Below, in pieces: positions 16,201 to 39,545 of a DNA stretch of 64,000 bases (its first letter is position 1; every line of letters begins with the position of its first letter). The translations under genes and the position numbers were made by a program. This stretch comes from Cyanidioschyzon merolae (Eukaryota): NCBI GenBank assembly GCA_000091205.1, contig AP006494.2; one strand, given 5' to 3'. Below the pieces are notes generated by a model that was given only the letters and a program-made list of their open reading frames with translations, had not been told where the DNA came from and searched no databases.

Positions 16201-18177
16201 CCAGCACAGGTGCCAGAACGCATGAAACGAACCGCAGAACCCGAGTTCCTGTGCAGGTCAATGTCGAACACGTCAATGAATGCACGCTGTTGGCGTTGCG
16301 CCCTAATCTCACTGGCCCAGAAAAGTGCGGTCCGCTCGTGGTGATTCTCGGGGCGTCCATGGAGGTAAACGACGACGACCTGTCTGCAGAAGACATCGAG
16401 GCGGCAGCGAGTTCGGAGGCGCGTTAGCCGCCACGAAAGCAGGACGGCACTTCAGATCATCCGAGCACAGGGTGTTGCCGGCAACCGAGGAACTCTGAGC
16501 ACTGCATCCAGAGGATGGTGGAAATCTGATGCCTGCCTTGCTTGCATGTTGTATCCATGCGGTTACCCAGAACAGTGCCTTCCAGGGCAAAGCAGACACC
16601 CTCGTTGAATCTGAGCGCCGCGAGCCTCGTCAGCGGCCTAGGCAATGTGATCTCCATATCATGCCTCAAGGCCTGGTTTATCACGATAGACACGTCTGTA
16701 CTGCACTGAACCGCTTCCTAAATGATACACGGCTGGTCTCTGCGAGCAATTGTGGACCATTCGAAGAACTCTGCACAGAGCATTGGCGGCGCTTTTTCAA
16801 GCTTTCTCGCTTCCAGAGGAAAATTGAAAGCAGGTTAGAGCATTCATGGAGACGGGCGCTATATCCATCGGCATACACCTCGTGAAACCTCGCTCTGAGT
16901 CGAGCAATGAGACTCATTGTGAACCGTGCAAGGTAGATGACGAAAAGGACAGCGTGGCGGTCCGTCGATCCTGGGCTGAAGAATATCGCGACCGTCGCCG
17001 TGCCCCGAGAGCAAGTGGACTCTATCAAAAGGCCTGAACCGAACGCGGATGAAGATGTTCAGCTTTTCCCAGCGCTCGAGTATCATGGATAGACGAGCGT
17101 GATAAACGCCCGGAGGCATGCTAGCAACGAAAATTCTGGTGTCATGACCCATTTCGACGCTCTGAGAAACGTATCGACCAGAGGGAATGCAATGTACGCT
17201 TCATTCCGAGCGCACATGTGCGTCCAAATGGCTCATGCAGACGATCCTTGGCACAAGTACATGAGACAGCGCTGGCGCTGCCGATGCTTTCCACTGCACC
17301 GAAGCAAGAAGCATGCTTTCGCCATCTTCAATGCGTTTTGGAAAGAAATGACTGACAAGCGGCGTTATTTGGCGGCGGTCCGTGGTGCTGACCGATATTT
17401 AGGGCGCCGAGGCCGCATTTCTGCTTCCTAGACGAGAGCGTGGAACGACTGCGGGAATCGATTCTGCCAGATTCCTATCGATGCGTTCAGCACGACATGA
17501 ACGCAACACCAGCACGGGTGCACACTGAAACTGGTAGAGGAGAAGCCGGTGAAACCGACCTGCATGCACAAGATGGTGTACAAGAAGCTGAATGAACGTA
17601 CGATCGCGAGGCAATGAAACCTGGGATTCTCCGCACGGTGCGATGCCACCTGCAATACCGCGAGCAAGCACTTCCTACAAAAGAGACCTGAACACCTTGA
17701 CGAATATTTGGAAGTAGCTCGTACTTCAGAAGCATCCAGTGGTTTTCTACCGAGCGAAATTTCGAAGGAATGTCTTGTACTAAGTGTGAGCACTGTGGTG
17801 AAATGCTGAAGACTTTCGCTGAAAGAAACGCCGTGGCCTGGAGACGTGGGATCGGATTCTCGACTCGAGCAAGGAACTCATATGGTGCAGTGCAGCAACC
17901 ATGAAAAGCTGGATTGCCGTGAATATCCCCCGGGAACGTTTCTTCTGCGCAATACGTGGACAATCACTATGTTCGATTATTCCATCATTCCGAGTATGCA
18001 TTGGAAGCGTTTCTGACAAGTAGAGGCGGCGCTGCAGCGCAGCAGATCGCTGCATGTGTTGCGCTCAGTGCAATGCGATGCTACAACACCGCAGCGTATC
18101 CGGCACCCGTGAAACGCGGTGGTGCATAGACGGGATCACTTGCTTAAATTCACTCACGAACGAAAGCAAAGTCTTTT

Positions 18178-19434
18178 TTGTTTGTAGAGAAGGCTTCCCT
18201 GCACATAACGATGCCGGGCTCCGATTCAGTGTCAGCCACTTTGTACGGCTTGGGCGGCAGCTCGACGATCCAGCTGTCGAAAGGTCACCCGAACCCGCGC
18301 CTTTTGCCACTGAGCGCTGTATACGAGGCGTTTGGTCAGTCTCGCGTACGGCCAGACGCTGAAGTGAGCCATCTTCAGTACGGTGCCCCGCAGGGTCCGC
18401 TCGCACTGCGTGAGCAGATCGCTCTCCTGCTGCACAGCGAGACAGGCTCGAGCACCGCTACCCCGGAGAACCTGATGATCACCAACGGCAGCGGACAGGC
18501 TCTCGATATGGTCTGCTCCGTGCTTTTATCACCGGGAGATTTGGTCGTTGTCGAAGACCCGTCCTACTTTTTGGCGTTCTATACGTTCCGGGACTACCGT
18601 CTGAACGTTGTCGGCATTCCGGTGGATGCATTCGGCATGCAAGTCGCTTTACTGGAGCAGCGACTGTCGGAAGATCCCACGTTTCGACCAGCGCTCGTAT
18701 ACACGATACCTATCTGTCAGAATCCCACCGGCATGACCATGTCCAGAGACCGAATGCGGCGCCTGGTGGAGCTCTCGCGTCAGTATTGCTTCAAGATCGC
18801 TAGCGATGAAGTGTATCTGCTCCTCAGCTTTAATAGCGACGAACAGCCGCTATCTCTGCGCGCTTTTGACGATGCAAACCAACCCACTGTGATCGCCATG
18901 AACTCGTTCAGCAAAATACTGGGACCTGGCGTGCGCCTTGGATGGATCGACGCTCATCCACGGTATATAGAGCGGTTTCTGCAAACCGGTCTGTTGCTGA
19001 GCGGTGGTGGACTCAACCCCTTCATGTCTGCGATCGCCACGGAGTTGTTACGATCGGGGTTCCAACGAGAGCACATCCATCGTCTGCGAGCAGCTTATGC
19101 TGCAGCGTGCAAACAGCTCTGCGACAGTCTTGATGATCATCTGGCAAAGCATCCGAAGTTGAGAATCAAGTACCAGCGACCCAGGGGTGGTTTCTTTGTC
19201 TGGATAGAGCTGCCATCCGAAATTGACGCAGCTGCGTTCCTCGAGTATTGTGTTCATGAGCACGGCGTGAGTTTCTTTGAGGGCATACGTTTCACCACGG
19301 ACACGAGCCATCATCGCAGTGCCTTACGCCTGAGCTTCTCCTGGCTGGAGCCACATGAGTTGGCCGAGGGTGCAAAACGCCTCGTAGAGGCACTCGCTGC
19401 GTATTCGCAAAGACGCCACGGTCCAGCGATCTGA
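18178..19434 (+). CDS. PLP-dependent aminotransferase, class I/II (AAT-fold)
   Basis: Class I/II aminotransferase motifs are present: NPTGMTMSRDRMRRLVELSRQYCFKIASDEVY and the lysine-containing motif NSFSKILGPGVRLGWI. Overall length is 418 aa. Confidence 0.8.
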   Translation: MFVEKASLHITMPGSDSVSATLYGLGGSSTIQLSKGHPNPRLLPLSAVYEAFGQSRVRPDAEVSHLQYGAPQGPLALREQIALLLHSETGSSTATPENLMITNGSGQALDMVCSVLLSPGDLVVVEDPSYFLAFYTFRDYRLNVVGIPVDAFGMQVALLEQRLSEDPTFRPALVYTIPICQNPTGMTMSRDRMRRLVELSRQYCFKIASDEVYLLLSFNSDEQPLSLRAFDDANQPTVIAMNSFSKILGPGVRLGWIDAHPRYIERFLQTGLLLSGGGLNPFMSAIATELLRSGFQREHIHRLRAAYAAACKQLCDSLDDHLAKHPKLRIKYQRPRGGFFVWIELPSEIDAAAFLEYCVHEHGVSFFEGIRFTTDTSHHRSALRLSFSWLEPHELAEGAKRLVEALAAYSQRRHGPAI

Positions 19435-22209
19435 ACAGTAATGCGTCAAGCAACAGAGTCGTTGGCATGTGCGGCGCCAGGGCAACTTTTCAGGAAGACT
19501 GGAGTTTGCTCGAGGCGTCTGATGCTTTGGTCATGGGTCATCGGCATGGATGTAGGGGACTTGCGGAGTTGATGTATGCTCCAGTATGTCACAGAGATAT
19601 CGTGCCTGAGCTGCTGTATCGAGGCGTTTTGTTTGGGGGCCTGGCGGACGCCATCACCGAATCTCGTCGATCAGGCGCTGCTCTGACGGGGAGTCCTTGA
19701 GCAAAAGACGCTGGGGTTCCCCGCAAAGCCCCGATCCAAATCCATGTGGTTCCGCTTGGATTGGCGCACGGACTGGAGCTTCACGCTTGCATCGGAAAAG
19801 GACACTAGCTGAGGTATCGGATACACTGGCCTTGGTTCCGGCTGATGACCAATATGTGAATGCGTTTGATGGATCCAGTCGTTGCTGTGCGTGATCGTCG
19901 CACCGGACTGGGTGCTGGACGGCTCAAATTTGGAACAGTGGACGCGGTAACGCCGAGCGCCCTCAGTGGCGGCTTGTACCAGGTGCATCGTACGCAAAAG
20001 AACGGTCACAGTCGCACATGGGTACATTGCCGACGGCAGCGTCGTGAGATGGACACTGGGTCGGACGCTGCACCGACAACCGAGCGTCGAGTGCTTGCGA
20101 CTAGCGTCGCGAACAAGCCACTAGGGCCGAACCATAGACGAATGAAAGTACAGCACTTGTCCCGCAAGCGACGCATCTTGTTCGGAGTGTAGAAATGCTG
20201 GACCAAGGAGGACTGGCAGGACTGAACGGGTATCCGTTCTGGGCCATAGATATCGCGCCGTCGCGCACTAGCTTGGATGCGGGGAACAATAAAGATGTCG
20301 TTGTTCTAATACTCTACGCATTGAGCGGGACTTGAGTGCATGTGCGGATTTGATTTTTTGCCATAGTATCAAATTGCATACAATGGTACTCTCGGAGGCA
20401 ACACCAAGTCGTCAGACAATCGCGTCCGATGCAAGAAACACATGAGCTTGTTTGCATCCGCGTTCAGGATTGAGCAAGAATCCTTCGGAAATGCCAGCGA
20501 TGCGGTGTTTTCTCTGCCGGTTCTTGCCCATGCGTCGGAGAGCAAAGCATGCGTCGTATCCGTCAATGCCGATGGGTATCCTCACTGAAGCTCGGTTCTG
20601 ACCAAGCGCACACCTTGAGCATTCGTCCGCGTGCATCGAAGAGACCTCATCCCTGACATGGTTCTACGATACTCGTTTCTATGCCCGTGTGTGGGCTCGT
20701 TCACGTTACGGTATACTTGATATGCACAACGCGCAATCGTAACGCGAGTTGCATCCTCAGACCAGCACAGAGACCATGCGTTTTCTCCAGTTTGCGTTTT
20801 TCTGCGAAGAATGCAGACAGAGCGTAGGCTTAGCTTCCCGCAATCGAACGTACCGTGTCAGACGCAGCCATTATGGGTATATATCCGAGTACCTGCGAGC
20901 TGGCACACATCCCATCCCGCATTCCAGAGCACGTGGTCAACGCTGTGGCGGGCGTTTTTTTTTCAAACGCTAATCTCGCAATGGAGCCTTGCTGAAGCGT
21001 CGCCCTGGACGCACCGCACCCCAGGGGTTGCGTGATGTCGCCATAGGGCCTGCGAATGGACCATGAACTCCGTGGAAGGGGTGGGCGTTGTTGGTTTGCT
21101 CGGAACTGAACGTGATCATGCAATACGACGGATGCTCGCTTCAGTGCCGATCTGCATCACGCAACCGGGTATCGCTGGTCAGTGCTGATGATCCGTCGAT
21201 CGGAAAAACGGCTGGATAACTTTTTGCACACGCACCTGCGCTTTAGCACCGCGCTGCGACTGACGTGAACCAGGTCGTTATATACGCTGGCTACAGAGTG
21301 TACGTTTCTGCGCGTTTGCCCGGCACCATGACTTGCCGGGAAAATCCTCAACTGCTCTCGAGGACGCATCGCATGCGCCCTTACGGTTTCGCACTCACTT
21401 CGACATGCCGCGCAGAACTGCATCTTCTGGAGCAAGTCAAGCTCGAGTAGATACCTCACATGCGCATTCGTATCATCGGGAAAGCGCGATGCTCGCACCG
21501 CCTCCCTGACTAGCGAAGGCGCACGAGCACCGACTCCCTGCGACATCGTCCGCCGTACCACAGACGTGATGCGAACGATGAAGCGAAGCATATATCCAGC
21601 AGTCAGCTATTGCTCGAGCCGACGCCCTCCGCTGTATCGCAAAGCTCATGCGTCTCGGAACTGCGTCAGCACCAACGCAACAGGTGCTATCGCAGACGCT
21701 CACAGCAGGTACAGTGCACGACAGAGCACGGGCAATGGCCTGTATCTCCGATGGAAAATATGGATAGTGGAACTTGGACGTAACGCCTGCAACGATGGAC
21801 GCTTTCCCGAATGCCGATATCCATCGCACAAAAAACAAGAGTATGCCTATCAGGCGAAACGTTCTGTCAAGCGAAAAAAGAAACAGCCAGCTGTGGCGCG
21901 CAATCTCGCGACCTGCGTGCGCGTGCGCGACTCCGAGATGTGCACGGGAGGGTGCAGTGTATGCTTCAGCGCACCCGCCTCCGGTCAACGTTTCCGGGCG
22001 ACGCACTGGATGAGCTGCTTCACTACGAATCGGCAGCTCTCAAGCTGAACGGAATAGCACACCGTCGATACAGCAGCGCGTGCTGGTCAAGCGACGTATA
22101 CGGCTGCCTGAGAGCGGTGCTTGGAGTTTTGCACGCCTGCATCCTCCTCTAGCACAATAGACTTGAACCTTGAGCGTATCCAGCACCAGTCCGGCACTAG
22201 ACACGGCCG

Positions 22210-23571
22210 TTGCCAGCTATGCTTCGGGTATTTAGACTGAGACTTTTCGGGTGGGGGCATTTTCAGCGGAGACTGGACCGAAGCGTGCCGCGTTACTCTG
22301 TGGAAGTCTACGGGCAAACTCGCTCGCTTGCGACGCCTGCCGGAGTCGCGGGGGCTCAAACCGCGGCGCACTTGTCTGTGCTCCAGGCGACAGTCGCGCG
22401 GTTTGCCCGAGAGCAAATCGCACCGGCGATTTTCTCTCGAGAGCAGCAGGGGTGCATTGAACCTAGTCTTTGGCGAGCTCTTTTTGAGCAAGGGCTCATG
22501 GGCATGGAAATTCCGTCCGACTTTGGCGGTAGTGGACTCAGCTTTGTCGAAACCTGCGCCTCCATCGAGCAGCTATCGAAGGTCGATCCCGCTGTTGCGC
22601 TCGTTGTCGATATCCAGAACACGTTGCTGAATCGTGCCGTGCTGCACTTTGGCACCCGCGAACAGCAGGCACTGTGGTTGCCGCGTCTCGCACGAGATAC
22701 AGTGGGTTCGTTCGCACTGAGTGAACCAGAAGCAGGCTCCGACGCGTTTTCTTTGCGCACACATGCCGACCTAGAGCAAGCTACATCAACAACATCCAGA
22801 CGGTACGTTATCAGCGGCTCAAAATTGTGGATCAGCAGCGCAGCAGAAGCACAATGGATGCTGGTTTTCGCCACAGTAGATCCAGCTCAGAAGCACCGAG
22901 GCATCACTGCGTTTGTGATCGACAACGTAGACGAAGCCAAGGCTCTGGGCCAGCTCCAGATCGGCCCCAAAGAAGACAAACTCGGTATCCGCGCGACCTC
23001 CTGTTGTCCGGTGCACTTTCACCGGTGCGTCATCGATGCCGATCGCCAAGTCCTCGGTGGACTAGGCCAAGGCTATCGGGTCGCAATGCGAGCGCTCAAC
23101 GAAGGACGCATCGGCATCGCGGCCCAGATGATCGGCCTCGCCCAAGGTGCTCTGGACGCTACGCTTCCGTATCTGGAGACACGTTGCCAGTTTGGCCGTC
23201 CGCTGATCGATAATCAGGGCCTGCAGTTCCAGATCGCACAGGCGGCAGCAGAGCTTGAAGCCGTTCGCGCCCTAACATTTCAGGCTGCTCGACTCGTTGA
23301 TGAGCACCAGGGTACATCGGCAGCTGCACATCTCGCTGAGATAGCTCGTCAGGCGGCATCGGCAAAACTCCTGGCTGCGCAGACTGCCTGCCGGTTGACG
23401 CGGCGTTGTATCGAGTGGATGGGCGGCATGGGTTTTATTCGGCAAACGCTTCCTGAAAAGTTCTATCGGGATGCAGTCATCGGCAAAATTTACGAAGGAA
23501 CGGAAAACATGCAATTAGCAACGATTTTCCGATTCCTTTCCGCAACGCACCACACCCGTCATGATTCATAG
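22210..23571 (+). CDS. Acyl-CoA dehydrogenase (short/branched-chain type), mitochondrial
   Basis: FAREQIAP...MGMEIPSDFGGSGLSFVETCASIEQLSKVDPAVALVVDIQNTL...ALSEPEAGSDAFSL...YEGTENMQLATIFRFL matches the ACAD family end to end. The N-terminal R-rich stretch is consistent with a mitochondrial presequence. Confidence 0.9.
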   Translation: MPAMLRVFRLRLFGWGHFQRRLDRSVPRYSVEVYGQTRSLATPAGVAGAQTAAHLSVLQATVARFAREQIAPAIFSREQQGCIEPSLWRALFEQGLMGMEIPSDFGGSGLSFVETCASIEQLSKVDPAVALVVDIQNTLLNRAVLHFGTREQQALWLPRLARDTVGSFALSEPEAGSDAFSLRTHADLEQATSTTSRRYVISGSKLWISSAAEAQWMLVFATVDPAQKHRGITAFVIDNVDEAKALGQLQIGPKEDKLGIRATSCCPVHFHRCVIDADRQVLGGLGQGYRVAMRALNEGRIGIAAQMIGLAQGALDATLPYLETRCQFGRPLIDNQGLQFQIAQAAAELEAVRALTFQAARLVDEHQGTSAAAHLAEIARQAASAKLLAAQTACRLTRRCIEWMGGMGFIRQTLPEKFYRDAVIGKIYEGTENMQLATIFRFLSATHHTRHDS

Positions 23572-24526
23572 CAATCGACGATGCAAGAGACCTCGAGCGT
23601 CTGCGACCAAAGTTGCATGGCCGCAGTTCTTCTACGATGAACGAACTTCTGCAGATCATGCCGGAGGCACACGAGGTTTGCATCGAGAAAATACGCATAC
23701 GAGGGAACCATTTCATCAAGAACTACGCGCACGACGGTCTAGTTATGCCGCTTGGGCCAATCGAAACATCGGTTGTGCGCTGGTCAAAGCGTCCGATGTT
23801 GACCAGTTCCTCTGGTCAATGCTAACGCAAACACAACGTCCTCGTCCGGCAGTCGCACAGCAACCGTGAGTAAACCTGTTTATAGCTTTTCTCTGCAAAA
23901 TAACCAAAGTCGACTTCTTTCGATGCTTCGCCAGAGTCGCGCAGCGAGTCGCCAGCCCGGTGTGCCTTTTCAGCGAGAGCCGCCAACAGCGTCTGCGTGG
24001 GTACCTCGACGAGCACCTAAGCGCTCACTCGCCGTCTCGTGGCTCGGATTCCACATACTCCAAATCAAAACGATTGGACTATGAACAACGGGAACCTCGC
24101 CACTGGGAGCGATATCCGCTTCCGTTGAGGCAACCGGCACTGCAACGCCTTCGTGCAACGCGCGCTCTTTCGAACGCGCGCTTCTGTAGCCACCGTTTCC
24201 AGGCAAGCGTTTCTCCAACGTTTTCGCTAGGGTGGTATTTTACGTTGCGTTTTCCGCTCCGCTGGTGACGTCACTTGCAAGTGCGCGCATCCACGACCAG
24301 CAGTGGTCACTCACGGGGTAGTGCAAAGTCGCAGACGCTCCTGGGCAGGCAAGGTGTCGTTTCGCGTCACGAGCACCCTGCCGTTGGACGTGCAGCGCGG
24401 AAACGGAACCTTCAGGGTCTGGCGGCTTCGAGCGCGACACAGGCACACCGCTAGTGTTGCTTGTGCGCCTGACTCGAGTCCGAGCGGTGGATGCACCAGG
24501 AGACTCTTCCGAGCTGGCCAACTTGA

Positions 24527-27500
24527 ATGAGCGCGTTCGCGAGTGAGCCCAGGTGCACGTCACCGTCGCAGACACTTCCAGAAGTTGCGCTCTACGCTGA
24601 TGGGCAAGGCTCAGCTCCGCTCTCGGAACAGGAACTCGTCCACGGAGCAGAAGACTGGGCGCATATTGCTGCTTTTTATAGGCTTTTAGAAGAGAGACGA
24701 CGTCGCAACAAGTACCTTTTGCAGCGCTCTGTACACGCGGGTCTGCACCGCTGGGCACGACACCTGGTGGCTCCTCAAGAGCGGTCCCGAAAACGGACGC
24801 AAAAACGACGGGATGAACCTGGTCATCCAGGTCGCCTGCTAGAGCGGATTCTGCGCGGAAAATTACTATGCTCCTTGGGATTGTGGAGACCGGATTCTAC
24901 TCGAGACCGACAACTCACCGGAGCAGATCGTACCTGTTGGCCGAACCTCACCGAGGATGCGTTCATTGAGCGTCTGAAACTGGCTTTTCGAAGTGAGTCT
25001 GAGGAGCTCGTACTCCACCTAGGGCCAGTATTCGTTGATCCCAGTGCGAACAAGTTCTCAGCGCTGACAACGAACGGCATCGCAGCGCGTATGCCCAGAA
25101 GCGCCCTGATGCGAGTTACCGTGGGTATGGGCATGATCGCACTCAATCAGGAAACTATGCTCGATTTTGAAACTTCGGTTCCTCCAGCGGACTTGAAATC
25201 ACACAAGGGTATCACAACCGAGATGGCTCGGATGCGAACGATCGTGCAGCGATCGTTTCGTGTGCCCGTGGAGCCCAGAGCTCCGCTGCATCCGGAACAC
25301 TGGCCCGCTGCAATTAGCATACCGGAGTGCTCGTTTGTAACACTCTGTTTCGACTTACGGAGCGAGCTTCTAGGCCTTTTGGGAGCGATAACTCCCACGG
25401 AATATCCGATTTTAGAAATACGGGCGGAATTGCCGCTTCTAATTCCGGAGCGAGATGCTTATTCAACGAATGGGTTACCCGACGGGTTGGCAGCTACGTC
25501 GTCGGATGTGCCCTGTGGGCAGGTGTGGCGAAAAGCACTAAAACTGTGTGATCCTGCAACAGGGCATTGGATGCCGAACCAAATATACTTGCTGGAGCTC
25601 CAGGCCGATGCCTCTGGTGCAGTATGGGTTCCAGGGCACGCGCCTCAACTCGCGTTGGGAATCGAGTGGCGGCCCCATCGAGAACAGCATCCCGGGTATG
25701 GAGCGGCGTGGAGCACGGGCACGAACCAGCGCCTTAAGATACCAAAACGCGCCGAGATGCTGCAAGCACCCGCCGTTCGCGAGCTCCCCATGCGTCCCTG
25801 GGAATCCGACAAGGTCCAGGCGAAGTACAATGGATGGCAGTCGAACTCCGCTGACACGAACGGGCTCGTGGAGCCAGCAAAGGCGGCTCCTCTGCTGCGC
25901 TACCGTATTTGGCGCTCGCCACCCGCGCACTGTACAGGAGTCTCGATGCGGAACGGCTACAAAGGCGCACGATCCCATCAGGCATTGATCACAGTTGACC
26001 GCTCCACCCTGACGTGCATTTGGTGCGGGATTCGAGTCCGGCACCTGCTGGCACTTATGCTACACACCTGGAAGCGTCACATGACTTGGCGATATACTGG
26101 CCATCGTTTGAAGATCTGGTACCCCCGCTCTCAGCAGAGAATGACGAGGCATCAGAATCCCGTCACCCAGGGATCAATCTAACGCTATTCACGGGTGGCT
26201 CAGAATCGAGCGATACCCAGTATCCCGCATCCATCATCCATGTGGCTCCAGCGCCTGCTCCAGATCGCCAAACGCAGCACGCAATGCGCTGCCTCGCAGA
26301 CGCCGTGCAAACAATGGCGCGCAGGTGCCCGCGACGCGCGCCCACGCACGTATGGATGCGTGCGATGCGCGTGCACTGCGCATCAGACGCGCTGCGAGTC
26401 GAGGACAGCAGCGCTGCCGTCGCCGTACGGCATCCAGGGGTAGATCGCGCACACCGCAAGGTGCGCGGTGGTCGCGTCTGCAAGCGCACGGATGCCGCGG
26501 ATGCACTGGCATGGACGCCGCCGGAGCGAGCACCCGCCGTAGGTTGTGCGTGCGCGGGAAAGCGGGGCGCGTGCACGCATCGCGATCCGCACCGGCACGC
26601 CGCTGCACGGACCAGCGATGATGCCCATGCCTCCGCCCGGCCAGCGCTGCAGAGCGATCTGCGCGAAGGTGCGCAGCAGTTGCCCGGCGACGGTGGACGG
26701 CGCTGCTACCTGCGCGCACTCTCTACGTTATGGGATCGGGATGATTCATCGGATGTGCGTCGCCAGTGCTGGCTGTTTCTCAGCGAACAACTCACTCGCG
26801 CGAGCGGAAACCTGCTGCGTAGAGACCAGCCGGTGCGGGCGGCTCGCGGACAGCGCAGCACGAGTGGTCGCTTGACGGCGTCGGAGGAGCACGTGGCGAG
26901 CTCGGGGGGATTCGATGCAGGCGGGACAAACTTGGACAAGCATCAAACGGACGTTCCTGCAGGCCCTGCAACGAGGAAACGGCGTGCGGCAAGAGCAGCA
27001 CCTGAAACGAAAGCGAATCCAGAGACGCTTCGGACGACGCGCATCCTGGCCTCCACGGATCGCTATGCTGGCAGTGTAAGCGTTCAACGTCAGCAACGCC
27101 CGCTCCTGGACACGTATGGAACGAAGCGCGAACGACCGATGAGGGGCTCTTCACGAGCATCCAGAGCTAGCGGACGTTCTGCGCATGATTTCGCTGGGGC
27201 GACAACCACCGCCGCTGGCACCGGCGCAAAGCTTATTTCCAGGTCGAGAATATCCGTTGTGGCTGCTTCGCCTGGCCAAGGCGCCGTATATGCGAACCTG
27301 CCGGACGTGCAGCCATGTGATCGATCGACGCGAGGCCGGCGTCAAGGCAACGCGACAGACAGGCGCCAGAAGAGAACGCGGTCGGCGCCAGCTCTGCGCC
27401 AAGCGCGAACGCTCCACTCCGGACGCCTGCGACAACGATGCGCCTGGAGAACGTCTACAAGCGAGACAGTACCGATGACCGCCGCTGCGAACGGTGCCAC

Positions 27501-28185
27501 AGCGCCTGCTTCCAGAGAAACGCCAAGAGAGCGGCCCGGAAAAGCTGCAGCAAGTAGCGATTCGCGTCTGTTTGATCGTACGTACTACCATTCGTTCACG
27601 TTTGCGCCAATGAGTCCGGATGAGGTGCTCGCCGCCTACGACTCTGAGCTGGAAGAAGTCGACGACGCGTGGCTTGTTCAGCTCTCGGATCACCGCATTG
27701 ACCAGTTTCTTGATGTGCTACCCGTCGAAAAGGTGTTGATGAAAGCCTGGAATGCATTTTTGAAAGAGGTATACCCAATCTTAGGTGACCGTTCCGTGCG
27801 GGACGCTGTCAGGCGTTTCGCACCGTGGTTTGTAGCGCGGCTGCGGGTGAACGCCTCCAGCTCGGCTTGTCATCCGTACGAGGCGCTTCGCACCGCGTTT
27901 CTCATGCATTTACGCGCTCTCTGGCAATTTCATTTACTCGGTTCTGAACAGGTTGCGGAAGCGATGATTGCGTTCGATCGTGCGTGGCTGAACGGTCAAG
28001 GGCCGGTCTTCGCAGCTGCGGCTGATTTGCAGCCGCGCCTTGGTGAAGGCTCCACCAATCACACCCATGCAGGCCTATCTCCAAACTCCCTGCCCAGGTC
28101 TGATCACGCAAACGGAATAGATGGTGATGCGGAGCTGGATCCAGAGAATCCTTTATGCGCTTGTGCGTCCGTGCAGGCTTGTTAG
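24527..28185 (+). CDS. SUZ12: Su(z)12/EMF2-like Polycomb Repressive Complex 2 subunit with C2H2 zinc finger and VEFS-box. The gene is interrupted: the frame shifts between about 26081 and 26182, separating ORFs 24527-26182 and 26014-28185. This could be a short intron, a frameshift or a pseudogene.
   Basis: ORF1 ends with the C2H2 pattern CIWCGIRVRHLLALMLHTWKRH (C-x2-C-x12-H-x4-H). The ORF2 C-terminus SELEEVDDAWLVQLSDHRIDQFLDVLPVEKVLMKAWNAFLKEV...RTAFLMHLRALWQFHLL aligns to the SUZ12 VEFS box ([44 protein letters not shown]...RNFMLHLVSMHDFNLI). The zinc-finger-then-VEFS order matches Su(z)12 architecture. The linker between them is R/A-rich and low-complexity. Confidence 0.65.
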
Positions 28186-29083
28186 CATCCGTTCGGAACC
28201 AGGGTCGATTTGTCCCAGGTTTCAGACCGGAATGCACGAGCGAGACAAGATGCGGATGATACTTAGTTGCGTCGCCAACGATGTTATTAGCGGAAATGAC
28301 CTTCAGGCACCATAGCCAGTGCGCCAGCTAACCCGTTGCCATTTCTTGTTCCACGCAGTGATGAACGAGCCCCTGAAAGCGCACAGAACCTCGGTCTCTG
28401 GCAAGGTATGATGAGCGCTGTGGTAACGCTGCTGCTCCATCGCGTGCGTCCTGTCGCTGCTGCCTGCTGCTTTTCTTAACGTTGTCGGGGAACAGGAATG
28501 GACGGCGGTACAGGGAACGGGTTGTGCAAAGCCCCGGAACGCTCGTGGCGTTTCGTACACGCCTCTCGTGCCGACTCGAGCGCTAGACTCGTAGCAGTAA
28601 ACAAGATAACGTAACATTTTGTGAACATGTTGGCAGATGTCACGCAGGTTGGGAGCAGTCACGTTTGTTATCTCTGCGCGTTTCGAGATAACGCGCCCGT
28701 GGACGACCCTGTGCTCAGCACGGGGCGTGCTACTTGACACCATCTATACTTGCATCCACAGGTCGAGAACGTCGCACGCAGTCACTGCGTCTACATCAGT
28801 CGGTTTCCAGTCAGCGTACCCGAATCCGGCCCATGTGCTCCGTTTCGGAAGCGTGGCATTCCCATAAACGCTGCACGGTGCGCTGCACTGGGCAGAACGC
28901 TGAACAAGCGTGCACGCAAAAAGACGATCACGATGACTTGTTCCTCGTCAGTGCAGTCTGCGTACCTGCATTCCCGTCAACAAACCGCCACAAACGGAAC
29001 AGGGTGCCTCAGGTGCAGAGGCTGGAGCGTCGCGGCAGTACGCATCCGTCTCCCCGACTAGTCGCATGCAGGTACTGGAGCGC

Positions 29084-29313
29084 ATCGCCCATGACGCATC
29101 CATTCCGAATGCTAGGATCTATGGTCAATCTACACGTTTCGTCCTCTGAAAAAGAATCGCCCATGACGCATCCATTCCGAATGCTAGGATCTATGGTCAA
29201 TCTACACGTTTCGTGCTCTGAAAAAGAATCGCCCATGACGCATACATTCCGAATGCTAGGATCTATGGTCTATCTACACGTCTCGTGCTCTGAAAAAGAA
29301 TCGCCCATGACGC
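29084..29313. repeat. 72-bp tandem repeat, 3.2 copies (unit atcgcccatgacgcatccattccgaatgctaggatctatggtcaatctacacgtttcgtcctctgaaaaaga), about 110 bp upstream of the SDR gene
   Basis: Unit starts are at 29084, 29156, 29228 and 29300, with 1 to 3 substitutions per copy. The overlapping ORF 28734-29387 translates the repeat as ESPMTHPFRMLGSMVNLHVSSSEK x3. Confidence 0.85.
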
Positions 29314-29420
29314 TGCGGCGAGCCAGCAGCGGTTTTTTACGAGGCATTTTTGCTGTTTGGGGTTTGCGCTGCTTAGAGACTTTTTGAAGTTTTCGGCTAC
29401 AGTGTCCGCAGCTGGTTTCC

Positions 29421-30200
29421 ATGGACTTTCGTAGTGACGCTCTACAGGGAAAAGTGGCAGTGATAACTGGTGCGAGCCGCGGCATCGGTGCCGCCATCGC
29501 CGAGTGCTTCCTCGAGGCCGGTGTCCAGGGTTTGGCGCTCATTAGTCGTACGCCAAGCGAGTTTGTGACTCAGTTGCGGAAACGAGCGGAATCTCGCGGC
29601 ACAAAAGTGGGTTTCTATTCACTGAACCTGGCCGACACGGAAGCCGTGGAGCGAACAGCGCGACAGATCGTACAGGACTGGGAACACGTTGACATTCTTG
29701 TGAACAACGCGGGGATAGCGCTCCTGAACCCCTTGACAGAGCTGAGCACCGTGGACTGGGATCTCACCATGACCGTGAATGTGCGTGCGCCTTTTCTGCT
29801 CTCGCGGATATTCGTTCGGGAGTCAATGATCCCGCGAGGCGCAGGAGGCAAGATCATCCATATCAGTTCGGTAGCGGCATTCGGCGGTGTACCAGAGCAC
29901 GCGGCCTATTGTGCATCCAAGGCAGCGCTCAACTCGCTGACAAAGACCATGGCCGTAGAATGGGGTCCATACGGAATTCAATGCAATGTCGTATGCCCGT
30001 CAATCATTATGACGGACATGGGACGCCAAGTTTGGGAAGATCCCGAGAAACACGGCCCGGTACTGGCGCGGGTACCGATCGGACGTTTTGCCAACCCGCC
30101 AGAAATTGCTCGGGTGGTGCTCTTTCTCGCCAGTCCTGAAAACTGTGTGGTGAACGGGCAGTGTATTGCTCCGGATGGTGGGTACACCGCTGGCCTCTGA
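29421..30200 (+). CDS. Short-chain dehydrogenase/reductase (SDR) family NAD(P)-dependent oxidoreductase
   Basis: It has the Rossmann motif KVAVITGASRGIGAAIA, the NNAG motif LVNNAGIA, and the catalytic YxxxK in YCASKAALNSLTKTMAVEW. Length of 259 aa is typical for a classical SDR. Confidence 0.9.
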   Translation: MDFRSDALQGKVAVITGASRGIGAAIAECFLEAGVQGLALISRTPSEFVTQLRKRAESRGTKVGFYSLNLADTEAVERTARQIVQDWEHVDILVNNAGIALLNPLTELSTVDWDLTMTVNVRAPFLLSRIFVRESMIPRGAGGKIIHISSVAAFGGVPEHAAYCASKAALNSLTKTMAVEWGPYGIQCNVVCPSIIMTDMGRQVWEDPEKHGPVLARVPIGRFANPPEIARVVLFLASPENCVVNGQCIAPDGGYTAGL

Positions 30201-32299
30201 GTCGTGGAAACTGCATACCAGCGGAGAGGCTGTGGCTTTCGCTCGGGCGCACTGCATGACACAGTTATTTGATTCCAAAACCGCGTCTCGATCTGGGCAG
30301 TACTCCGTGCTGTACGGGTCGTGACCGTTGGGAGTATGCCCCACGGATATTGCGTATTATCCGCAGCCGACGACCGTCTGCACCGCCATGACCCACACGG
30401 ACAGCGGTTTCCAAAACTCGCCTCCATACGCTGTACGGTACTGGATACGCTGATAGCGTTACCGGTGAGCGCGGGCGATGCGTCTGCTCACGGAGACAAG
30501 GAATGACTGCGGATAAGCGCGAGCGAACTCCGAGGCGCCACTGGGCACACCAGGGCGCAGGTCGCGGCTCCAGAGCCATGAATCTCGACAAGGCCGACAC
30601 CGAGTCGTCGCCGGCACCCAGGCTGCCCAGCGATGCCGTTCCCACTCATGGTGGTGCTCTTGTTCCGAACTTGAGTGGGATGGCGTTACGTGCGCAACGA
30701 TGCCCTCAGGGTGGCAGTATCGCTCATGGTGGAGCGTGTGCCCACACCAGTTGTGGAACAATGCAATGCAGAGACGCATGTTGGCCAAGGCGCTCAGCAT
30801 GCGCACCTGGATCATCCAGATTGGCATATCCACCCGAAAGCACTGAAAAAGCATTTTGGATCAAGTCGGCGCAGATCTGGTTCAAGAGGTTCCTTGGTGC
30901 CGCTACACACCAAGTGTTCTCCAGGAACGGGCACGGCTTCGGACACCTCCAAAGCGTAGTTCAGGAGAAAGCGTCGACTGGTCACCGAAGCAACCGTCGA
31001 GTGTCCACGTTAGCTCGTCACCATGTAGGGAATGCAACCTATCATTCACATTCGAATACTAGTGGGAGATTGTAAGGTCCCCGGCGTTCACGTGCGGCAC
31101 CCGCTGGCACGGTAAAGCGCTTGTTCGCGAACTGCGGTGAAAACCTGACCCTGGTTCGTATCAGAACACGAGCTGCTCACTGTGAATCACACTGCAGTCA
31201 TTGTGGCGACGCAGTTCCCGGAATCCCGATACACCTACTCTCTCAGCGTCCAAGTGGAGAACAGGTCTGTGGCTGCCTCTTTGCGGTAGAGCAGCTGCCT
31301 GAGGAACTGGAGTTGATGGGAGGCGATCGCTCGCATGGAGCACAGCGCTGGCGCCTGGTGACCCTGTATCTGTGCAACATCCCAGGCTCGTGGTCACCAG
31401 ACGCACATGCTAGCGTGTAGGCGAAAGGCCCAGCGAACCGAAGGAGCCGTCTAACACACCGAATCCTGTACCTGCCCGCTGGTGAATGCCGAGCAAATGC
31501 CCGTGTCGATGACCCGCGGCGCGTTCCACACACAAGTGTGAAGCAGAAACTCGTTACCCGGGATTCATTCTACCGGCCAGTTTTCTTCAACGCGTCGTGC
31601 TGCAGACACAGGCAGGCCTGCATACGCAGACTATCCGAGCCCAACGTGTAGACGAGACCACCCGACACGCTCTGGCGACGCGTGCAACACGCCTCGAAGC
31701 GACGACCGTCGCTCTATGGCAAAGTTGTTCTGCCTGCGTACTGCGTCTGCACCGTCGCTAGCGACGCTACTGCGGACGCGCTCAACAGACTCGACGCACG
31801 ATGGAGCATATGACATGATCAGCATGCTCCAGGGAATGTCCCAACAGTGGCTAATCGTCAATGCACGCAGGGCATGGAATGGTGGACGCTTCCCCGATTG
31901 CTGGGACCGATCGTGTAACCAAGGATCCCTGGTTTACGTCAACGTTGTATCAAACATAAAGTAACTGTTGCTGTGCGCAGACTTGCCGATCCGAACGAAC
32001 AGCCGCTTTTGTAGAGGCGCCTTGCGGCACGCGTTACCATATCGGGAGCAAACTGGAAAGTTCCGACGAAAACGCAACACTGAACTGCTCGCGCACTTGC
32101 TACAATGATCTATTTCTTCCAAAACTATTTAGATGTACAGCGTCAACATTTGAAGTGCAGCCGTAGGTGCTTTCGGATGCATAGGTGGTTGTGGGATGCT
32201 CGGCTGGCGTGCCTTATGTCGCCGGGATCAAGATGATTCGCGACGCCCCCTGAACAAGGATTCGACAAACAGCCCGTATGATGATCCAGTTCAGACGTA

Positions 32300-32480
32300 C
32301 AAGCTTGCACGCTGCCCTTTTCGGTACGTGAAGCACATTCGATTCACACATACTTCAAGTTTTCGATCATTGTGTTTCAACGTAAGTAGCGGGCGCAGCA
32401 AGTCGCGCCACAGGCCAACCGCGAACAACAACTCGACGTCGCACCTCGCCGACTCGTTCACAAGTTCATGCCCAAACTGC
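32300..32480. repeat. Degenerate third copy of the 681-bp dispersed repeat family, about 75% similar over the core (cccttttcgGtacgtGAagcaCattcgaTtc...ttcaagttttcgatcaTtGtg)
   Basis: ORF 32291-32494 (-), LLRPLLTLKHNDRKLEVCVNRMCFTYRKGQ, parallels ESLRPSIALKQNDRKLVQCGIRTCYVYEKG of the intact copies. DNA similarity is visible on manual alignment. Confidence 0.45.
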
Positions 32481-33516
32481 ACTGAAATCGTCATGTACAG
32501 TGATCGATTCCGTGTGGAAGAGAACTCCTCATCGCTGTGTGACTAGCAACGAAGCGAAATGCCACACCAGCGTGACACGTCTTCCGGGGTATGCTCCCCG
32601 ATGTCCTTGCCTCTTCTGTTCGAAGGGAGAGGTCACGGGCTCGGACTTGAGTCCTCACAACGATCGCTTCCAATGCGAGCGAACGCAGACGGATCAGAAT
32701 CTCTCGACTCGATCTCCAGCCTAGAGCTCTCGTACGGTACATGTTGCACCGAGCGTCAGCGTCGTGTTCCACACATCCCTTGTCGAGTGGAACAGCATGC
32801 GCTCGCACGTGCAGCGGACAGCGTACTCGCACATTGCATCCCCTGCGATGATGCCCCTTAGCATAGAGTAGCGGAAACGGAGGAAGGCATCGACGGGAGC
32901 ATTCTGGACTCGTCACGAGCATGTACCGAGCAATGAAACAAGCGCTCACGCACTACAGAACACCACTCAGAATACGAGTCGTAGAGTGTACATGGAGTCT
33001 TTCATCTTAAAGGTGTCTCAATTCCAGGTGCGCGTATTCGGTTACGCTTCTCGCGTTTAGTAGCACATCCATTCGGAGTGCGTTCATTTCCAAACATGCT
33101 CAGTCCAGGGGAAAACTGTGAACATGGAAGTAGGGGATCCTGGAGGCCCGTCACCGCCGGGTGCCGAGTCAACGGAAGCAATCCTCTTCTCGCCGACCTT
33201 TTAGCGAAGAAAAACACCGGAATAGACGGGAAGAGGTGTTTACCCGACCGAACGATGACGATAGTGCAGTCGTACTCAGGGCACGAGTTCGAGGCCAAGT
33301 TGAATTGCTGAGTTCAATCAGAGGCAATAAACACAAGGCGCTTGTCATCCGACACTTGAACGCTGCTCTCTATACCAGACGATATACGCTGATCAAGACG
33401 AGACCTACAGCGTTGAGGCGATCTACCGCAATAGGGCAGCCTCTAACGCTCCAACACCAGAAGCAGAAGCCAAAACCTTCACCCTAACACGTCGACATAC
33501 AAACCAGACAAGCGTT

Positions 33517-33595
33517 TATCTATCTATCTATCTATCTATCTATCGGTGTACACATTCGCACCCGCACTCGCACCCGCACTCGCACCCGCACACCC
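33517..33595. repeat. Compound simple repeat: (TATC)7 at 33517-33544, followed by (GCACCCGCACTC)x3 at 33557-33595
   Basis: Read directly from the sequence. Confidence 0.8.
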
Positions 33596-33802
33596 TCTAC
33601 CGTGATCATCGATCGACGTCGATCGGGCATCCGTTGCGTTCGCGTCCAGTGCCGAAGCCGATCACTCGATTCGTCGCCCGATCTGGAGGCAAAGCCACAT
33701 CGCGGTGTCGCGCGGTCGAGACACGCGCACACCTACCGCTACAACGCGAAACGTCCGCGATCCGTTATCGTGCAAACGCGCCGCTCCAGGGCGCCTCCAT
33801 CA

Positions 33803-35155
33803 ATGCAAGGCGCTGCTAGAGACCTGGAGAATGTTTCTTCAACGATTTGGGGTGTAGTGAGCGCTGCTCTATCCCTGCAAGGGCAGCATCTTCGGAAGGC
33901 TACCATTTTAGGTTTCCTTTTACGCGTGCTGCTGACAACTGAACTCGTGAGAGGTGGTCTCTCGCACGCGGTAACAGGCTGGGCAAACGCCAAAGGTAGA
34001 CAATTGCGTAGTGCGTTCCGGAGGGAGCACTGGCGTCGGAAAATGCTCAACGTACCCGCACCTCCCGCTACTACCGCTGTGTACTCAGTGCGTCTTGCGA
34101 CTTGCGTTGTAGGAATTATTAGTTCGCTTCTGGTGTACGCGTACTTGCAAGAACGCATCATGGCGTTGCCGTTGACCACGGACGCCGCCGGCCAGCCGGT
34201 GTTCTTTAGGGACTCGTTGTTCTTGGTACTGCAGAACCGTCTCTACGCTGCACTAGCAGCGGTCTTTGTGCTTTTGTGGCAGGGCGACCGCAGTGGCATG
34301 CGGCCGCAAGCGCCCCTCTACAAATACGCCTCTGTCTCGTTGAGCAACGTGGTTGCGACCTGGGCCCAGTACTCTGCGCTGGCTTGGGTGTCGATGCCTA
34401 CACAGACGCTGGGCAAGTGCGCGAAAATGATTCCAGTACTCGTTTGGGGCTCTATAATGAGCGGGAAACGGTATACGCTGAGCGACTACGGGGTCGCAGC
34501 AGCAGTCGCTGCGGGATGCACGCTTTTTCTACTGGCTGGAAACATTCAAGCGAAATACAGTGCAGAGCAGAACTCGCTCTATGGGCTAGTGCTTATGGTT
34601 GTGTACTTGGCGTTTGACGGGTTCACGTCGACGTTTCAGGAGAAACTTTTCAGGGGGTACCCTATGTCGACGTATAACCAGATGCTGTTCGTCAACTTAA
34701 CCTCTGCCTGCATTAGTTTTTTGGGTGTTGCAAGCAGTGGCCGACTCGCTGCGGACCTGCAGCTCTGCTGGCAGTATCCACGACTGTTCATCGATGCAAG
34801 CGTTTTGAGTGCAGCAGCAGTCATTGCTCAGTTTTTCATCACCTACACGATCAAAGAATTCGGTGCCCTGGTCTACGCGACCGTCATGACGACCCGACAA
34901 ATCTTGACCATCCTCCTAAGCAACCTATTTTTTGCGCACGGACTTACTGTTCAGCAGTGGTGCGGAGCTGCGATCGTGTTCAGTGCTCTATACCTGAAGA
35001 GTTACACACAGCAGATGTCGCGACGAGCGACGAAACCTGCTGCAGCACCCCTCGATAACGATAACGGACCCGCGAGCGAGGAAAGTAAGGCCTTCCACGT
35101 TGCCGCGGTTGCTCTACCCCAGACTGCGCAAGAGTGCAGAGCACTAGCACATTAG
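33803..35155 (+). CDS. SLC35B-type nucleotide-sugar / PAPS transporter (UAA family). The start codon is uncertain: the ORF is open from 33602, and candidate start Mets are at 33803 and 34043.
   Basis: SMPTQTLGKCAKMIPVLVWGSIMSGKRYTLSDYGVAAAVAAGCTLFLL aligns to the SLC35B core ([47 protein letters not shown]). The C-terminal segment FGALVYATVMTTRQILTILLSNLFFAHGLTVQQWCGAAIVFSALYLKSY matches the family's last TM pair. There are multiple hydrophobic TM segments. Confidence 0.75.
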   Translation: MQGAARDLENVSSTIWGVVSAALSLQGQHLRKATILGFLLRVLLTTELVRGGLSHAVTGWANAKGRQLRSAFRREHWRRKMLNVPAPPATTAVYSVRLATCVVGIISSLLVYAYLQERIMALPLTTDAAGQPVFFRDSLFLVLQNRLYAALAAVFVLLWQGDRSGMRPQAPLYKYASVSLSNVVATWAQYSALAWVSMPTQTLGKCAKMIPVLVWGSIMSGKRYTLSDYGVAAAVAAGCTLFLLAGNIQAKYSAEQNSLYGLVLMVVYLAFDGFTSTFQEKLFRGYPMSTYNQMLFVNLTSACISFLGVASSGRLAADLQLCWQYPRLFIDASVLSAAAVIAQFFITYTIKEFGALVYATVMTTRQILTILLSNLFFAHGLTVQQWCGAAIVFSALYLKSYTQQMSRRATKPAAAPLDNDNGPASEESKAFHVAAVALPQTAQECRALAH

Positions 35156-35978
35156 TCCAACGAATGCGCATTTCGAGTCGTCGCAGGCGGTGGCGGTGGC
35201 GATGGCGGTGGATCAGCAGCTGAGGAACGTCGGGGATCGAGTAACCCGCTGTGCCACCAGAGGCGTTGTCGACAACGTGAATGTGCTCTTCGATATCTGG
35301 ACTCGATCTAGGCGCCCAAACAGTTCAAGTTGATGTGTTTAAAATGGATAACCAGTGCTTTCGCTGCACCGGGCACTGGATCCGCACTGCAATGCACAGG
35401 CGCTTGCTCGTGAATCGCGCTCCAGTCGATGCAACGCCGAGAGCGCACTGCACATTCGCCTTCAAACGTTCAGGTCCCTGAGGTGACCATCTCGTTATGA
35501 GCCGTGTTTGGTGCTTCCATGGGCGTTGTGATCGTTGCGTATGTGCAACAAAGTGCGCATCGTGCATCATTTTCGACCCGACAGCAGCGCTGCGTCATTG
35601 TTTTACGGGTGGTGTATGCACGAATGCGCAGACGCACTGCGCGACAGGCTGTGCCTCGAAGAGGGCTCGCGACCTGCGCTGCGGTTGTCGATCATGAAAC
35701 GCAGTCTCTACACGATATCGCAAGCTCGCAGCCTCTCTATCCCGTATAGGAGCGCGCATTTCCGGTACCAGCAGTCGCACGAATCCGGCAGCAGAGGTGC
35801 CCGCGAGCACCGCTGCGCCCGGCAAGGTAATCGGATGGAGTACGTCGACCCGGTTCGTTGAACGGACCTGGCGATCCAGGTGGCTGCAGCGGGCGTTCGC
35901 ATCCCAGCACTCGCACCAGCAGCATCGAGCGTGAAATACCTCATGATGCTGGTCCGAGCGCGCGGGGCACGGTGTCGT

Positions 35979-39503: not shown

Positions 39504-39545
39504 CGCTGCGGAGCGTACGAGCGTCAAGGTACGCGTCGCCTCGAA

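What the first reader, a model, noticed from the sequence alone, without database searches (positions are those of the whole stretch)
24527..28185. Split Su(z)12/EMF2-like PRC2 gene: C2H2 zinc finger in one ORF, VEFS-box in the next, with a frame change between them
Two long overlapping ORFs (24527-26182 in frame 2 and 26014-28185 in frame 1) together have the Su(z)12 domain order. There is a C2H2 finger (CIWCGIRVRHLLALMLHTWKRH, about 26015-26081). Then comes a 500-aa R/A-rich low-complexity linker. Last is an unmistakable VEFS-box (EEVDDAWLVQLSDHRIDQFLDVLPVEKVLMKAWNAFLKEV...FLMHLRALWQFHLL, about 27640-27960). The zinc finger and VEFS-box are in different frames, so the frame change must lie between 26082 and 26182. 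Possible explanations are an unusually short or noncanonical intron, a real or assembly frameshift, or an inactivated Polycomb gene. I tested one GT donor candidate (gt at 26119-26120, intron ending at the ag at 26154-26155). It would be 37 nt, which does not restore the frame, so I cannot resolve this from the sequence alone. A PRC2 core subunit in a GC-rich, intron-poor protist-like genome is of evolutionary interest, as is the chance that it is a pseudogene. The N-terminal 480 aa have no recognisable motifs and may be lineage-specific.
Basis: partly seen in the sequence, partly recalled or inferred. Interest (0 to 1): 0.7.

Follow-up and report, generated by a model that had tools for sequence, protein, structure and literature searches.

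The report
Frameshifted Su(z)12 gene in red alga
The two overlapping reading frames are one Polycomb Su(z)12 gene of the red alga Cyanidioschyzon merolae 10D, cut in two in this reference sequence by a two-base insertion inside its zinc finger that no wild relative carries, so it is a gene-model or sequence problem in a known gene, not a new kind of gene.

Summary
ORFs 24527-26182 and 26014-28185 exist. The second carries a VEFS-box (Pfam E=3.4e-21) and the first ends in a SUZ12-type zinc finger.

The window is C. merolae 10D chromosome 12. The ORFs are annotated as CML081C (551 aa) and CML082C (348 aa), and CML082C is already published as CmSu(z)12.

Fourteen distinct, about 99.3% identical metagenome and SRA contigs carry one uninterrupted 1217-aa ORF here. 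The Cyanidiococcus orthologue (1112-1165 aa, "Polycomb protein suz12") is also a single ORF.

The split comes from an AC insertion at 26062-26063 (ctACACACct versus ctACACct). It lies between the third and fourth zinc ligands, not in 26082-26182. Removing it gives CIWCGIRVRHLLALMLHLEASH (Cx2Cx12Hx4H), which aligns with human SUZ12.

I rejected an intron and programmed frameshifting. Two further window-only indels (+1 at 26546, +2 at 26564-65) together keep the frame.

I could not decide whether the insertion is a local error in the deposited sequence (my lean, about 55%) or a real mutation of the laboratory strain (about 38%). No independent 10D sequence was reachable.

PRC2 is active in 10D according to the literature. 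Novelty is low; the practical value is a corrected gene model.

The parts
24527..26061 (+). 5' part of the Su(z)12 gene in frame 2: the N-terminal region (aa 1-485, conserved only with Cyanidiococcus) and the first three zinc ligands. It is annotated together with the shifted tail as CML081C.
   Evidence: Exact match to BAM80699.1 CML081C. Colinear with aa 1-511 of the 1217-aa ORF of the relatives. 33% identical to Cyanidiococcus KAK4531265.1 with E=1.6e-47.
26015..26082 (+). SUZ12-type C2H2 zinc finger. Cys codons are at 26015 and 26024, the first His is at 26063-65 (frame 2) or 26065-67 (frame 1), and the authentic last His is at 26080-82 in frame 1.
   Evidence: With AC removed it reads CIWCGIRVRHLLALMLHLEASH. 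This aligns with human SUZ12 [22 protein letters not shown] and with Cyanidiococcus CLWCPMRFRDALELILHLEATH. Zn_SUZ12 E=9e-5 in the intact form.
26062..26063 (+). AC insertion (ctACACACct versus ctACACct) that moves the reading frame from frame 2 to frame 1. It is the cause of the split.
   Evidence: Absent from all 14 distinct related contigs and present only in the window.
26064..26182 (+). Out-of-frame tail of CML081C (TWKRHMTWRY...QGSI, stop TAA at 26180-26182). The same bases in frame 1 encode the conserved HLEASHDLAIYWPSFEDLVP.
   Evidence: Conservation of the frame-1 reading in Cyanidiococcus.
26064..28185 (+). 3' part of the gene in frame 1: the end of the finger, an Arg/Ala-rich linker of about 480 aa, the VEFS-box, the C-terminal tail and the stop.
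   Evidence: Open for 707 codons. Colinear with aa 512-1217 of the relatives.
26546..26565 (+). Two more window-only insertions, G at 26546 and GG at 26564-65. Together they add 3 nt and change GLRARESGA to GCACAGKRGA in the linker.
26761..26790 (+). Short conserved block RQCWLFLSEQ inside the linker.
   Evidence: Identical in Cyanidiococcus. Coordinates.
27139..28185 (+). Reference annotation CML082C (348 aa), published as CmSu(z)12. It is the tail of the same ORF, read from an internal ATG.
   Evidence: Exact match to BAM80700.1. Mikulski 2017.
27556..27966 (+). VEFS-box, the domain that in SUZ12 binds EZH2 and EED.
   Evidence: PF09733 E=3.4e-21. phmmer to the human SUZ12 VEFS in PDB entries 6c23, 5hyn and others, E=1e-6 to 1e-8.

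Best explanation
This is one gene, the single Su(z)12 (SUZ12/EMF2-type) subunit of PRC2 of Cyanidioschyzon merolae. Its native product is about 1217 aa. It has an N-terminal region found only in Cyanidioschyzon and Cyanidiococcus, a SUZ12-type C2H2 finger, a long basic linker and a VEFS-box.

By analogy with SUZ12, the VEFS-box would hold E(z) and ESC in the active conformation, and the N-terminal half would carry the p55 and accessory contacts. This functional part is inferred, not shown here.

In the deposited 10D sequence, a 2-nt AC insertion at 26062-63 inside the finger shifts the frame. Annotators therefore called two genes, CML081C and CML082C. No intron, recoding or gene fission in the lineage is involved.

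My lean is that the insertion, together with the two other private indels 480-500 nt downstream, is a local flaw in the deposited sequence. On this view it is not a property of the living strain, and 10D makes the full-length protein.
For: Identity of the organism and the annotations.

Single 1217-aa ORF in the relatives. All 14 distinct contigs are intact at both indel sites. The Cyanidiococcus orthologue is a single ORF named suz12. The frame-1 reading directly after the insertion is conserved.

VEFS and zinc-finger homology.

Signs of a local sequence flaw:
- Over 22.4 kb compared with 3 to 11 other haplotypes, the window has 28 private substitutions but only 4 private indel events.
- Three of those events fall within 504 bp of this gene, in the most G+C-rich part of the window. 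The fourth is a TATC microsatellite.
- Five of the gene's six private differences lie in 26062-26565.

Signs that the gene is functional in the 10D lineage:
- The three private substitutions are all synonymous.
- pN/pS is about 0.4.
- 10D has E(z)-dependent H3K27me3. In organisms that possess SUZ12, this mark needs the VEFS domain (established knowledge).
Against: No independent 10D read or contig could be reached:
- The Logan contigs that encode the same C-terminus differ from 10D at 6-10 positions and stop short of the site.
- The 'corrected' 10D proteins are not in the collection.

The reference is a finished Sanger genome, in which three indel errors within 500 bp would be unusual. All three are insertions, two of them of 2 nt, which is not the commonest Sanger error type.

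The 2026 reannotation of 10D still lists both genes. E(z) knockouts are viable, so a PRC2 lesion could persist in a laboratory clone.
Confidence: 0.55

Rival explanations
1. The AC insertion is real in strain 10D, a haploid clone kept in culture for decades. Su(z)12 is then truncated after aa 511 plus a 40-aa shifted tail. Any VEFS-containing product must start at an internal codon such as the CML082C ATG at 27139. That would leave PRC2 with a VEFS-only catalytic lobe, uncoupled from the N-terminal half, or show that Su(z)12 is partly dispensable.
For: The sequence as deposited has the insertion. ACAC to ACACAC is a plausible replication-slippage product. The +1/+2 pair at 26546-26565 preserves the frame, as real variants in a selected ORF do. 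PRC2 is not essential in culture. Some lineages with H3K27 methylation lack Su(z)12 altogether. The reannotation that used 10D RNA-seq kept two genes.
Against: Three private indels against three private substitutions in one gene is far from the ratio in the flanks, which is 1 to 25. The private substitutions are all synonymous, so any inactivation must be very recent. The allele was seen in none of 14 other contigs. Robust E(z)-dependent H3K27me3 in 10D is more simply explained by an intact Su(z)12.
Confidence: 0.38
2. The frame is restored during expression, by a short or non-canonical intron, by programmed -1 ribosomal frameshifting, or by transcript slippage or editing.
For: Only the fact that two overlapping ORFs in frames 2 and 1 need a -1/+2 shift.
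Against: Relatives need no such event, because the ORF is continuous. There is no X_XXY_YYZ slippery site in the overlap. All 38 frame-restoring GT..AG candidates delete conserved finger or post-finger residues, and none has a GTAAGT-like donor. Conservation with Cyanidiococcus resumes immediately after 26063, so only removal of exactly 2 nt there fits. C. merolae has only about 35 introns.
Confidence: 0.02
3. CML081C and CML082C are two independent genes, and the resemblance to a single Su(z)12 is coincidental or reflects an old fission.
For: The reference annotation lists two genes.
Against: The ORFs overlap by 169 nt. The region between the CML081C stop and the CML082C start stays open in frame 1. 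All relatives and the sister genus have one ORF. The two genes fall into one orthogroup with single genes of Cyanidium and Cyanidiococcus.
Confidence: 0.02

Closest known systems
Cyanidiococcus yangmingshanensis Su(z)12 (KAF6003605.1 'Polycomb protein suz12', 1165 aa; KAK4531265.1, 1112 aa)
   Same: Same order of parts in one ORF: N-terminal region (33% identity), finger CLWC...HLEATH, linker with RQCWLFLSEQ, and VEFS-box. Same neighbours, acyl-CoA dehydrogenase upstream and SDR downstream.
   Different: It has no frameshift. Its linker is shorter and diverged, and it lacks the 60-aa C-terminal tail.
C. merolae CML082C, published as CmSu(z)12 (Mikulski et al. 2017, PMC5405695)
   Same: It is the last 348 codons of this same ORF.
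   Different: The published model lacks the finger and the whole N-terminal half, which sit in CML081C. CML081C appears in no paper of the searched library.
Human SUZ12 / Drosophila Su(z)12
   Same: VEFS-box (E about 1e-6 to 1e-8 against PDB SUZ12 chains) and a Cx2Cx12Hx4H finger with matching hydrophobic positions, in the same order.
   Different: The finger-to-VEFS spacing is about 490 aa, against about 90 aa in human SUZ12 by the aligned chain numbering. The N-terminal ZnB/WDB/C2 regions are not detectable by sequence. The fold could not be modelled (pLDDT 36).
Plant EMF2 / VRN2 / FIS2
   Same: Same family: C2H2 finger plus VEFS. They are placed in one tree with CML082C.
   Different: The plant genes are a multigene family with developmental specialisation, whereas here there is a single gene.

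Membership tests
Su(z)12 / SUZ12 / EMF2 (PRC2 core subunit) | VEFS-box domain above the curated threshold | tested here: met
   PF09733 scores 76 bits against a cut-off of 23, E=3.4e-21, at nt 27556-27966. Matches to the VEFS of solved human SUZ12 chains.
Su(z)12 / SUZ12 / EMF2 (PRC2 core subunit) | SUZ12-type C2H2 zinc finger N-terminal to the VEFS-box | tested here: inconclusive
   The Cx2Cx12Hx4H motif is present once the AC is removed. It aligns with the human SUZ12 finger and is conserved in Cyanidiococcus. However, PF23320 reaches only 22.6 bits against a cut-off of 28 in the intact relatives, and 12.5 bits in the window frame.
Su(z)12 / SUZ12 / EMF2 (PRC2 core subunit) | Finger and VEFS-box on one polypeptide | tested here: not met
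   Not met in the window as deposited, where the frameshift at 26062-63 separates them. Met in all 14 related contigs and in Cyanidiococcus.
Su(z)12 / SUZ12 / EMF2 (PRC2 core subunit) | N-terminal region with the SUZ12 fold (ZnB, WD-binding, C2) that binds p55/RBBP4 and accessory subunits | tested here: inconclusive
   No Pfam or PDB sequence match for aa 1-485. The AlphaFold2 model from 5 sequences had pLDDT 35.9, so no fold search was run.
Su(z)12 / SUZ12 / EMF2 (PRC2 core subunit) | Partner subunits E(z) and ESC in the same genome, and H3K27me3 present | not testable with these tools
   They lie outside the window. From the literature: CMQ156C is E(z) and CMK173C is ESC. E(z) knockout gives near-complete loss of H3K27me3 in 10D derivatives.
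Su(z)12 / SUZ12 / EMF2 (PRC2 core subunit) | Physical association with E(z)/ESC and requirement for methyltransferase activity | not testable with these tools
   Needs co-immunoprecipitation or a knockout of CML081C/082C.
Programmed -1 ribosomal frameshift site | Slippery heptamer X_XXY_YYZ in the zero frame within the ORF overlap, conserved in relatives | tested here: not met
   No heptamer in 26014-26182. Relatives have no frame change.
Spliceosomal intron | GT..AG interval of length 3n+2 whose removal keeps the conserved residues | tested here: not met
   All 38 candidates remove conserved finger or post-finger residues and have poor donor sites. Orthologues are colinear.

The most novel reading that the evidence does not exclude
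The model strain C. merolae 10D really carries the frameshift. It would then run PRC2 with a Su(z)12 split into a finger-damaged N-terminal fragment and a separately initiated VEFS fragment, or with no VEFS at all. In that case the published H3K27me3 maps and E(z) phenotypes of 10D describe a natural separation-of-function mutant, not the wild type. Wild Yellowstone strains with the intact 1217-aa gene would be the proper reference. This would make the role of the SUZ12 N-terminal half in targeting testable in a very simple eukaryote.
Probability: 0.35. Interest if true: 0.55.

Novelty: already known. Interest (0 to 1): 0.3.

Why it matters
C. merolae 10D is the reference red alga for work on the origin of Polycomb silencing. 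Its Su(z)12 has been analysed only as the 348-aa VEFS fragment CML082C. The zinc finger and the whole N-terminal half sit unrecognised in the 'hypothetical protein' CML081C.

Joining the two corrects the gene model, the domain comparisons and the phylogenies.

If the frameshift turns out to be real in the strain, the H3K27me3 data from 10D would have to be read as coming from a Su(z)12 mutant. Either way, one read-mapping check settles it.

Tried and rejected
1. Intron or recoding. I enumerated all frame-restoring GT..AG pairs and slippery heptamers. None is compatible with the conserved sequence.

2. Independent 10D sequence. None of these routes gave a 10D-identical contig across the site:
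- Exact-protein look-ups of the C-terminal 236 aa (an earlier try, used a wrong coordinate).
- The acyl-CoA dehydrogenase.
- The 102-aa ORF upstream.
- Eight alternative products plus two 'corrected' full-length proteins.

3. Metagenome scan for both alleles. Four contigs were found, all intact.

4. Full-length homology search. It was swamped by low-complexity words and found only its own cluster. The VEFS-only search found one 221-aa relative.

5. Fold of the N-terminal 511 aa. The AlphaFold2 model had pLDDT 36, so no fold search was run.

6. Wider sampling of the window for private indels. Two look-ups (55002-55715 and 9683-10882) found no record. The baseline therefore covers only 16870-39540.

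7. Literature. No paper mentions CML081C. No supplement is held for the Ribo-seq paper. A search for resequencing of 10D found nothing useful.
Full report
**What is in the sequence.**
They overlap by 169 nt.

- The second ORF carries a VEFS-box. Pfam PF09733 gives E=3.4e-21 and 76 bits against a cut-off of 23, at aa 515-651, which is nt 27556-27966.
- The end of the first ORF gives a weak match to the SUZ12 zinc domain PF23320 (E=0.13) over the CIWC... finger, which starts at 26015.
- The region is the most G+C-rich of the window, 61.8% in 26001-28000.

**Which organism and which genes.**
Exact-sequence look-ups identify the window as chromosome 12 (859,119 bp) of Cyanidioschyzon merolae strain 10D.

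- ORF1 is the annotated hypothetical protein CML081C (BAM80699.1).
- The last 348 codons of ORF2, from the ATG at 27139, are CML082C (BAM80700.1).
- The downstream gene is the SDR CML083C.
- CML082C is the protein used in the literature as CmSu(z)12, with E(z) = CMQ156C and ESC = CMK173C (Mikulski et al. 2017).
- CML081C is mentioned in no main text of the searched library.
- In the supplement of a 2026 reannotation paper, 'CML081C, CML082C' sit together in one orthogroup with single genes of Cyanidium and Cyanidiococcus (PMC13353863).

**What relatives look like.**
Look-ups through neighbouring genes returned contigs from JGI and ENA metagenomes and one SRA assembly. They are 99.2-99.5% identical to the window and have the same gene order.

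In every one of them the locus is a single 1217-aa ORF with a VEFS-box. Counting duplicates once, 14 distinct contigs cover the critical sites and all are uninterrupted.

A library-wide HMMER search with the N-terminal 511 aa found only this cluster and one more distant protein (33% identity, E=1.6e-47). That protein is Cyanidiococcus yangmingshanensis KAK4531265.1 (1112 aa). A second assembly of it, KAF6003605.1 (1165 aa), is named 'Polycomb protein suz12'.

It has the same layout in one ORF: N-terminal region, finger CLWCPMRFRDALELILHLEATHDLAMYWPS, a long linker containing RQCWLFLSEQ, and the VEFS-box.

**Where and what the frame change is.**
Alignment of the window with the relatives shows three insertions found only in the window:

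- AC at 26062-26063 (ctACACACct versus ctACACct).
- G at 26546.
- GG at 26564-26565.

The first insertion moves the reading from frame 2 to frame 1.

Without it the protein reads CIWCGIRVRHLLALMLHLEASHDLAIYWPSFEDLVP, a Cx2Cx12Hx4H finger.

- HMMER aligns it with human SUZ12 [24 protein letters not shown].
- The post-finger residues are nearly identical in Cyanidiococcus.
- The Pfam Zn_SUZ12 score rises from 12.5 to 22.6 bits in the intact form.

The other two insertions add 3 nt in total and only change nine linker residues, GLRARESGA to GCACAGKRGA.

**Explanations excluded.**
The overlap contains no X_XXY_YYZ slippery site. All 38 GT..AG intervals that would restore the frame remove conserved finger or post-finger residues and have poor donors. 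Relatives need no splicing or recoding, and the species has only about 35 introns. An intron or a programmed frameshift is therefore rejected.

An old pseudogene is also unlikely:

- Frame 1 remains open for 707 codons.
- pN/pS among six haplotypes is about 0.39, and 0 nonsynonymous against 4 synonymous changes in the finger region.
- The three substitutions private to the window in this gene are all synonymous.

**Error or real mutation?**
This is the one point I could not settle.

The window is not an outgroup to the other haplotypes. It shows 14-23 differences from them, against 15-27 among them, with a mosaic pattern. The intact state is therefore ancestral.

Over 22.4 kb (16870-29083 and 29314-39540), compared with 3 to 11 haplotypes, the window has 28 private substitutions and only four private indel events. 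Three of these fall in this gene within 504 bp. The fourth is one unit of a TATC microsatellite at 33517-33520.

Five of the six private differences in the gene lie between 26062 and 26565. This pattern fits a patch of poor sequence better than ordinary divergence: it is rich in indels, tightly clustered and in the most G+C-rich stretch, and the accompanying substitutions are synonymous.

In addition, 10D clearly has working PRC2. H3K27me3 is mapped in it, and knockout of E(z) in 10D derivatives nearly abolishes the mark. In organisms that have SUZ12, the VEFS domain is required for that activity (established knowledge).

Against an error:

- The reference is a finished Sanger genome.
- All three changes are insertions, two of them of 2 nt.
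- AC duplication is a plausible slippage product.
- The +1/+2 pair preserves the frame, as real variants do.
- PRC2 loss is tolerated in culture.

No 10D-identical independent contig exists in the collections I could query. I put about 55% on a flaw in the deposited sequence and about 38% on a real allele of the laboratory clone.

**How it most likely works.**
Shown here:

- One ancestral ORF with a SUZ12-type finger and a VEFS-box.
- Conserved synteny with the sister genera.
- Purifying selection.

Inferred from the family:

- The VEFS-box binds E(z) and ESC to form the catalytic lobe.
- The N-terminal half, whose fold I could not model (pLDDT 36), would bind p55 and any accessory or targeting factors.

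The linker of about 490 aa between finger and VEFS is much longer than in animal SUZ12. It is poorly conserved apart from the RQCWLFLSEQ block.

**Novelty and score.**
A Su(z)12 homologue in C. merolae, and PRC2 function there, are already published. The sister-genus orthologue is already named suz12. What appears not to be in the literature I could search is that CML081C is the missing N-terminal half and that a 2-nt insertion in the finger causes the split. That is a useful correction, not a discovery of a new kind.

I rate it 'already known', with interest about 0.3. The only reading that would raise it is a real split in the model strain (probability about 0.35).

Noticed in passing
window 29084-29313: A 72-bp tandem repeat (3.2 copies, 97% matches) lies between Su(z)12 and the SDR gene. 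It lies inside a 217-aa ORF (28734-29387) with repeated SPMTHPFRMLGSMVNLHVS units. BLAST hits shifted by one or more repeat units against the related contigs suggest that the copy number may vary.
   Followed up: partly
window 39544-40088: A 68-bp tandem repeat has 8 copies (96% matches). In several related contigs (for example L005, L008, L012) the alignment jumps from 39612 to 40021, which suggests fewer copies there.
   Followed up: partly
window 33457-33574: The intergenic stretch upstream of the UDP-galactose-transporter-like ORF is an indel hotspot among haplotypes. It holds a TATC microsatellite (33517-33532), a 6-nt CAGAAG indel and a 12-nt CGCAC-type indel.
   Followed up: no
window 16870-40692 versus loci L005-L036: Hot-spring metagenome populations (JGI 3300005573, 3300005861, 3300009503, 33000503xx; ENA ERZ2724xxxx) are only 0.5-0.8% diverged from the Italian strain 10D. 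Their SNP patterns are mosaic, which suggests recombination. This fits the recently reported mating between 10D and a Yellowstone strain.
   Followed up: partly
window 23561-23869: A 102-aa ORF overlapping the end of the acyl-CoA dehydrogenase gene is called as a 'hypothetical protein' on more than 20 contigs. It has no Pfam match and is probably a spurious call, but it is conserved at the protein level across haplotypes.
   Followed up: no
window 31441-31450 and 33555-33586: There are small clusters of substitutions private to the window (three within 10 nt, and three within 32 nt). Private differences are therefore clumped elsewhere too, though there they come without indels.
   Followed up: no
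window 1-35000: Nearly all long ORFs in the first 35 kb are on the + strand, with short intergenic spacers and no sign of introns. This is typical of the compact C. merolae genome.
   Followed up: no
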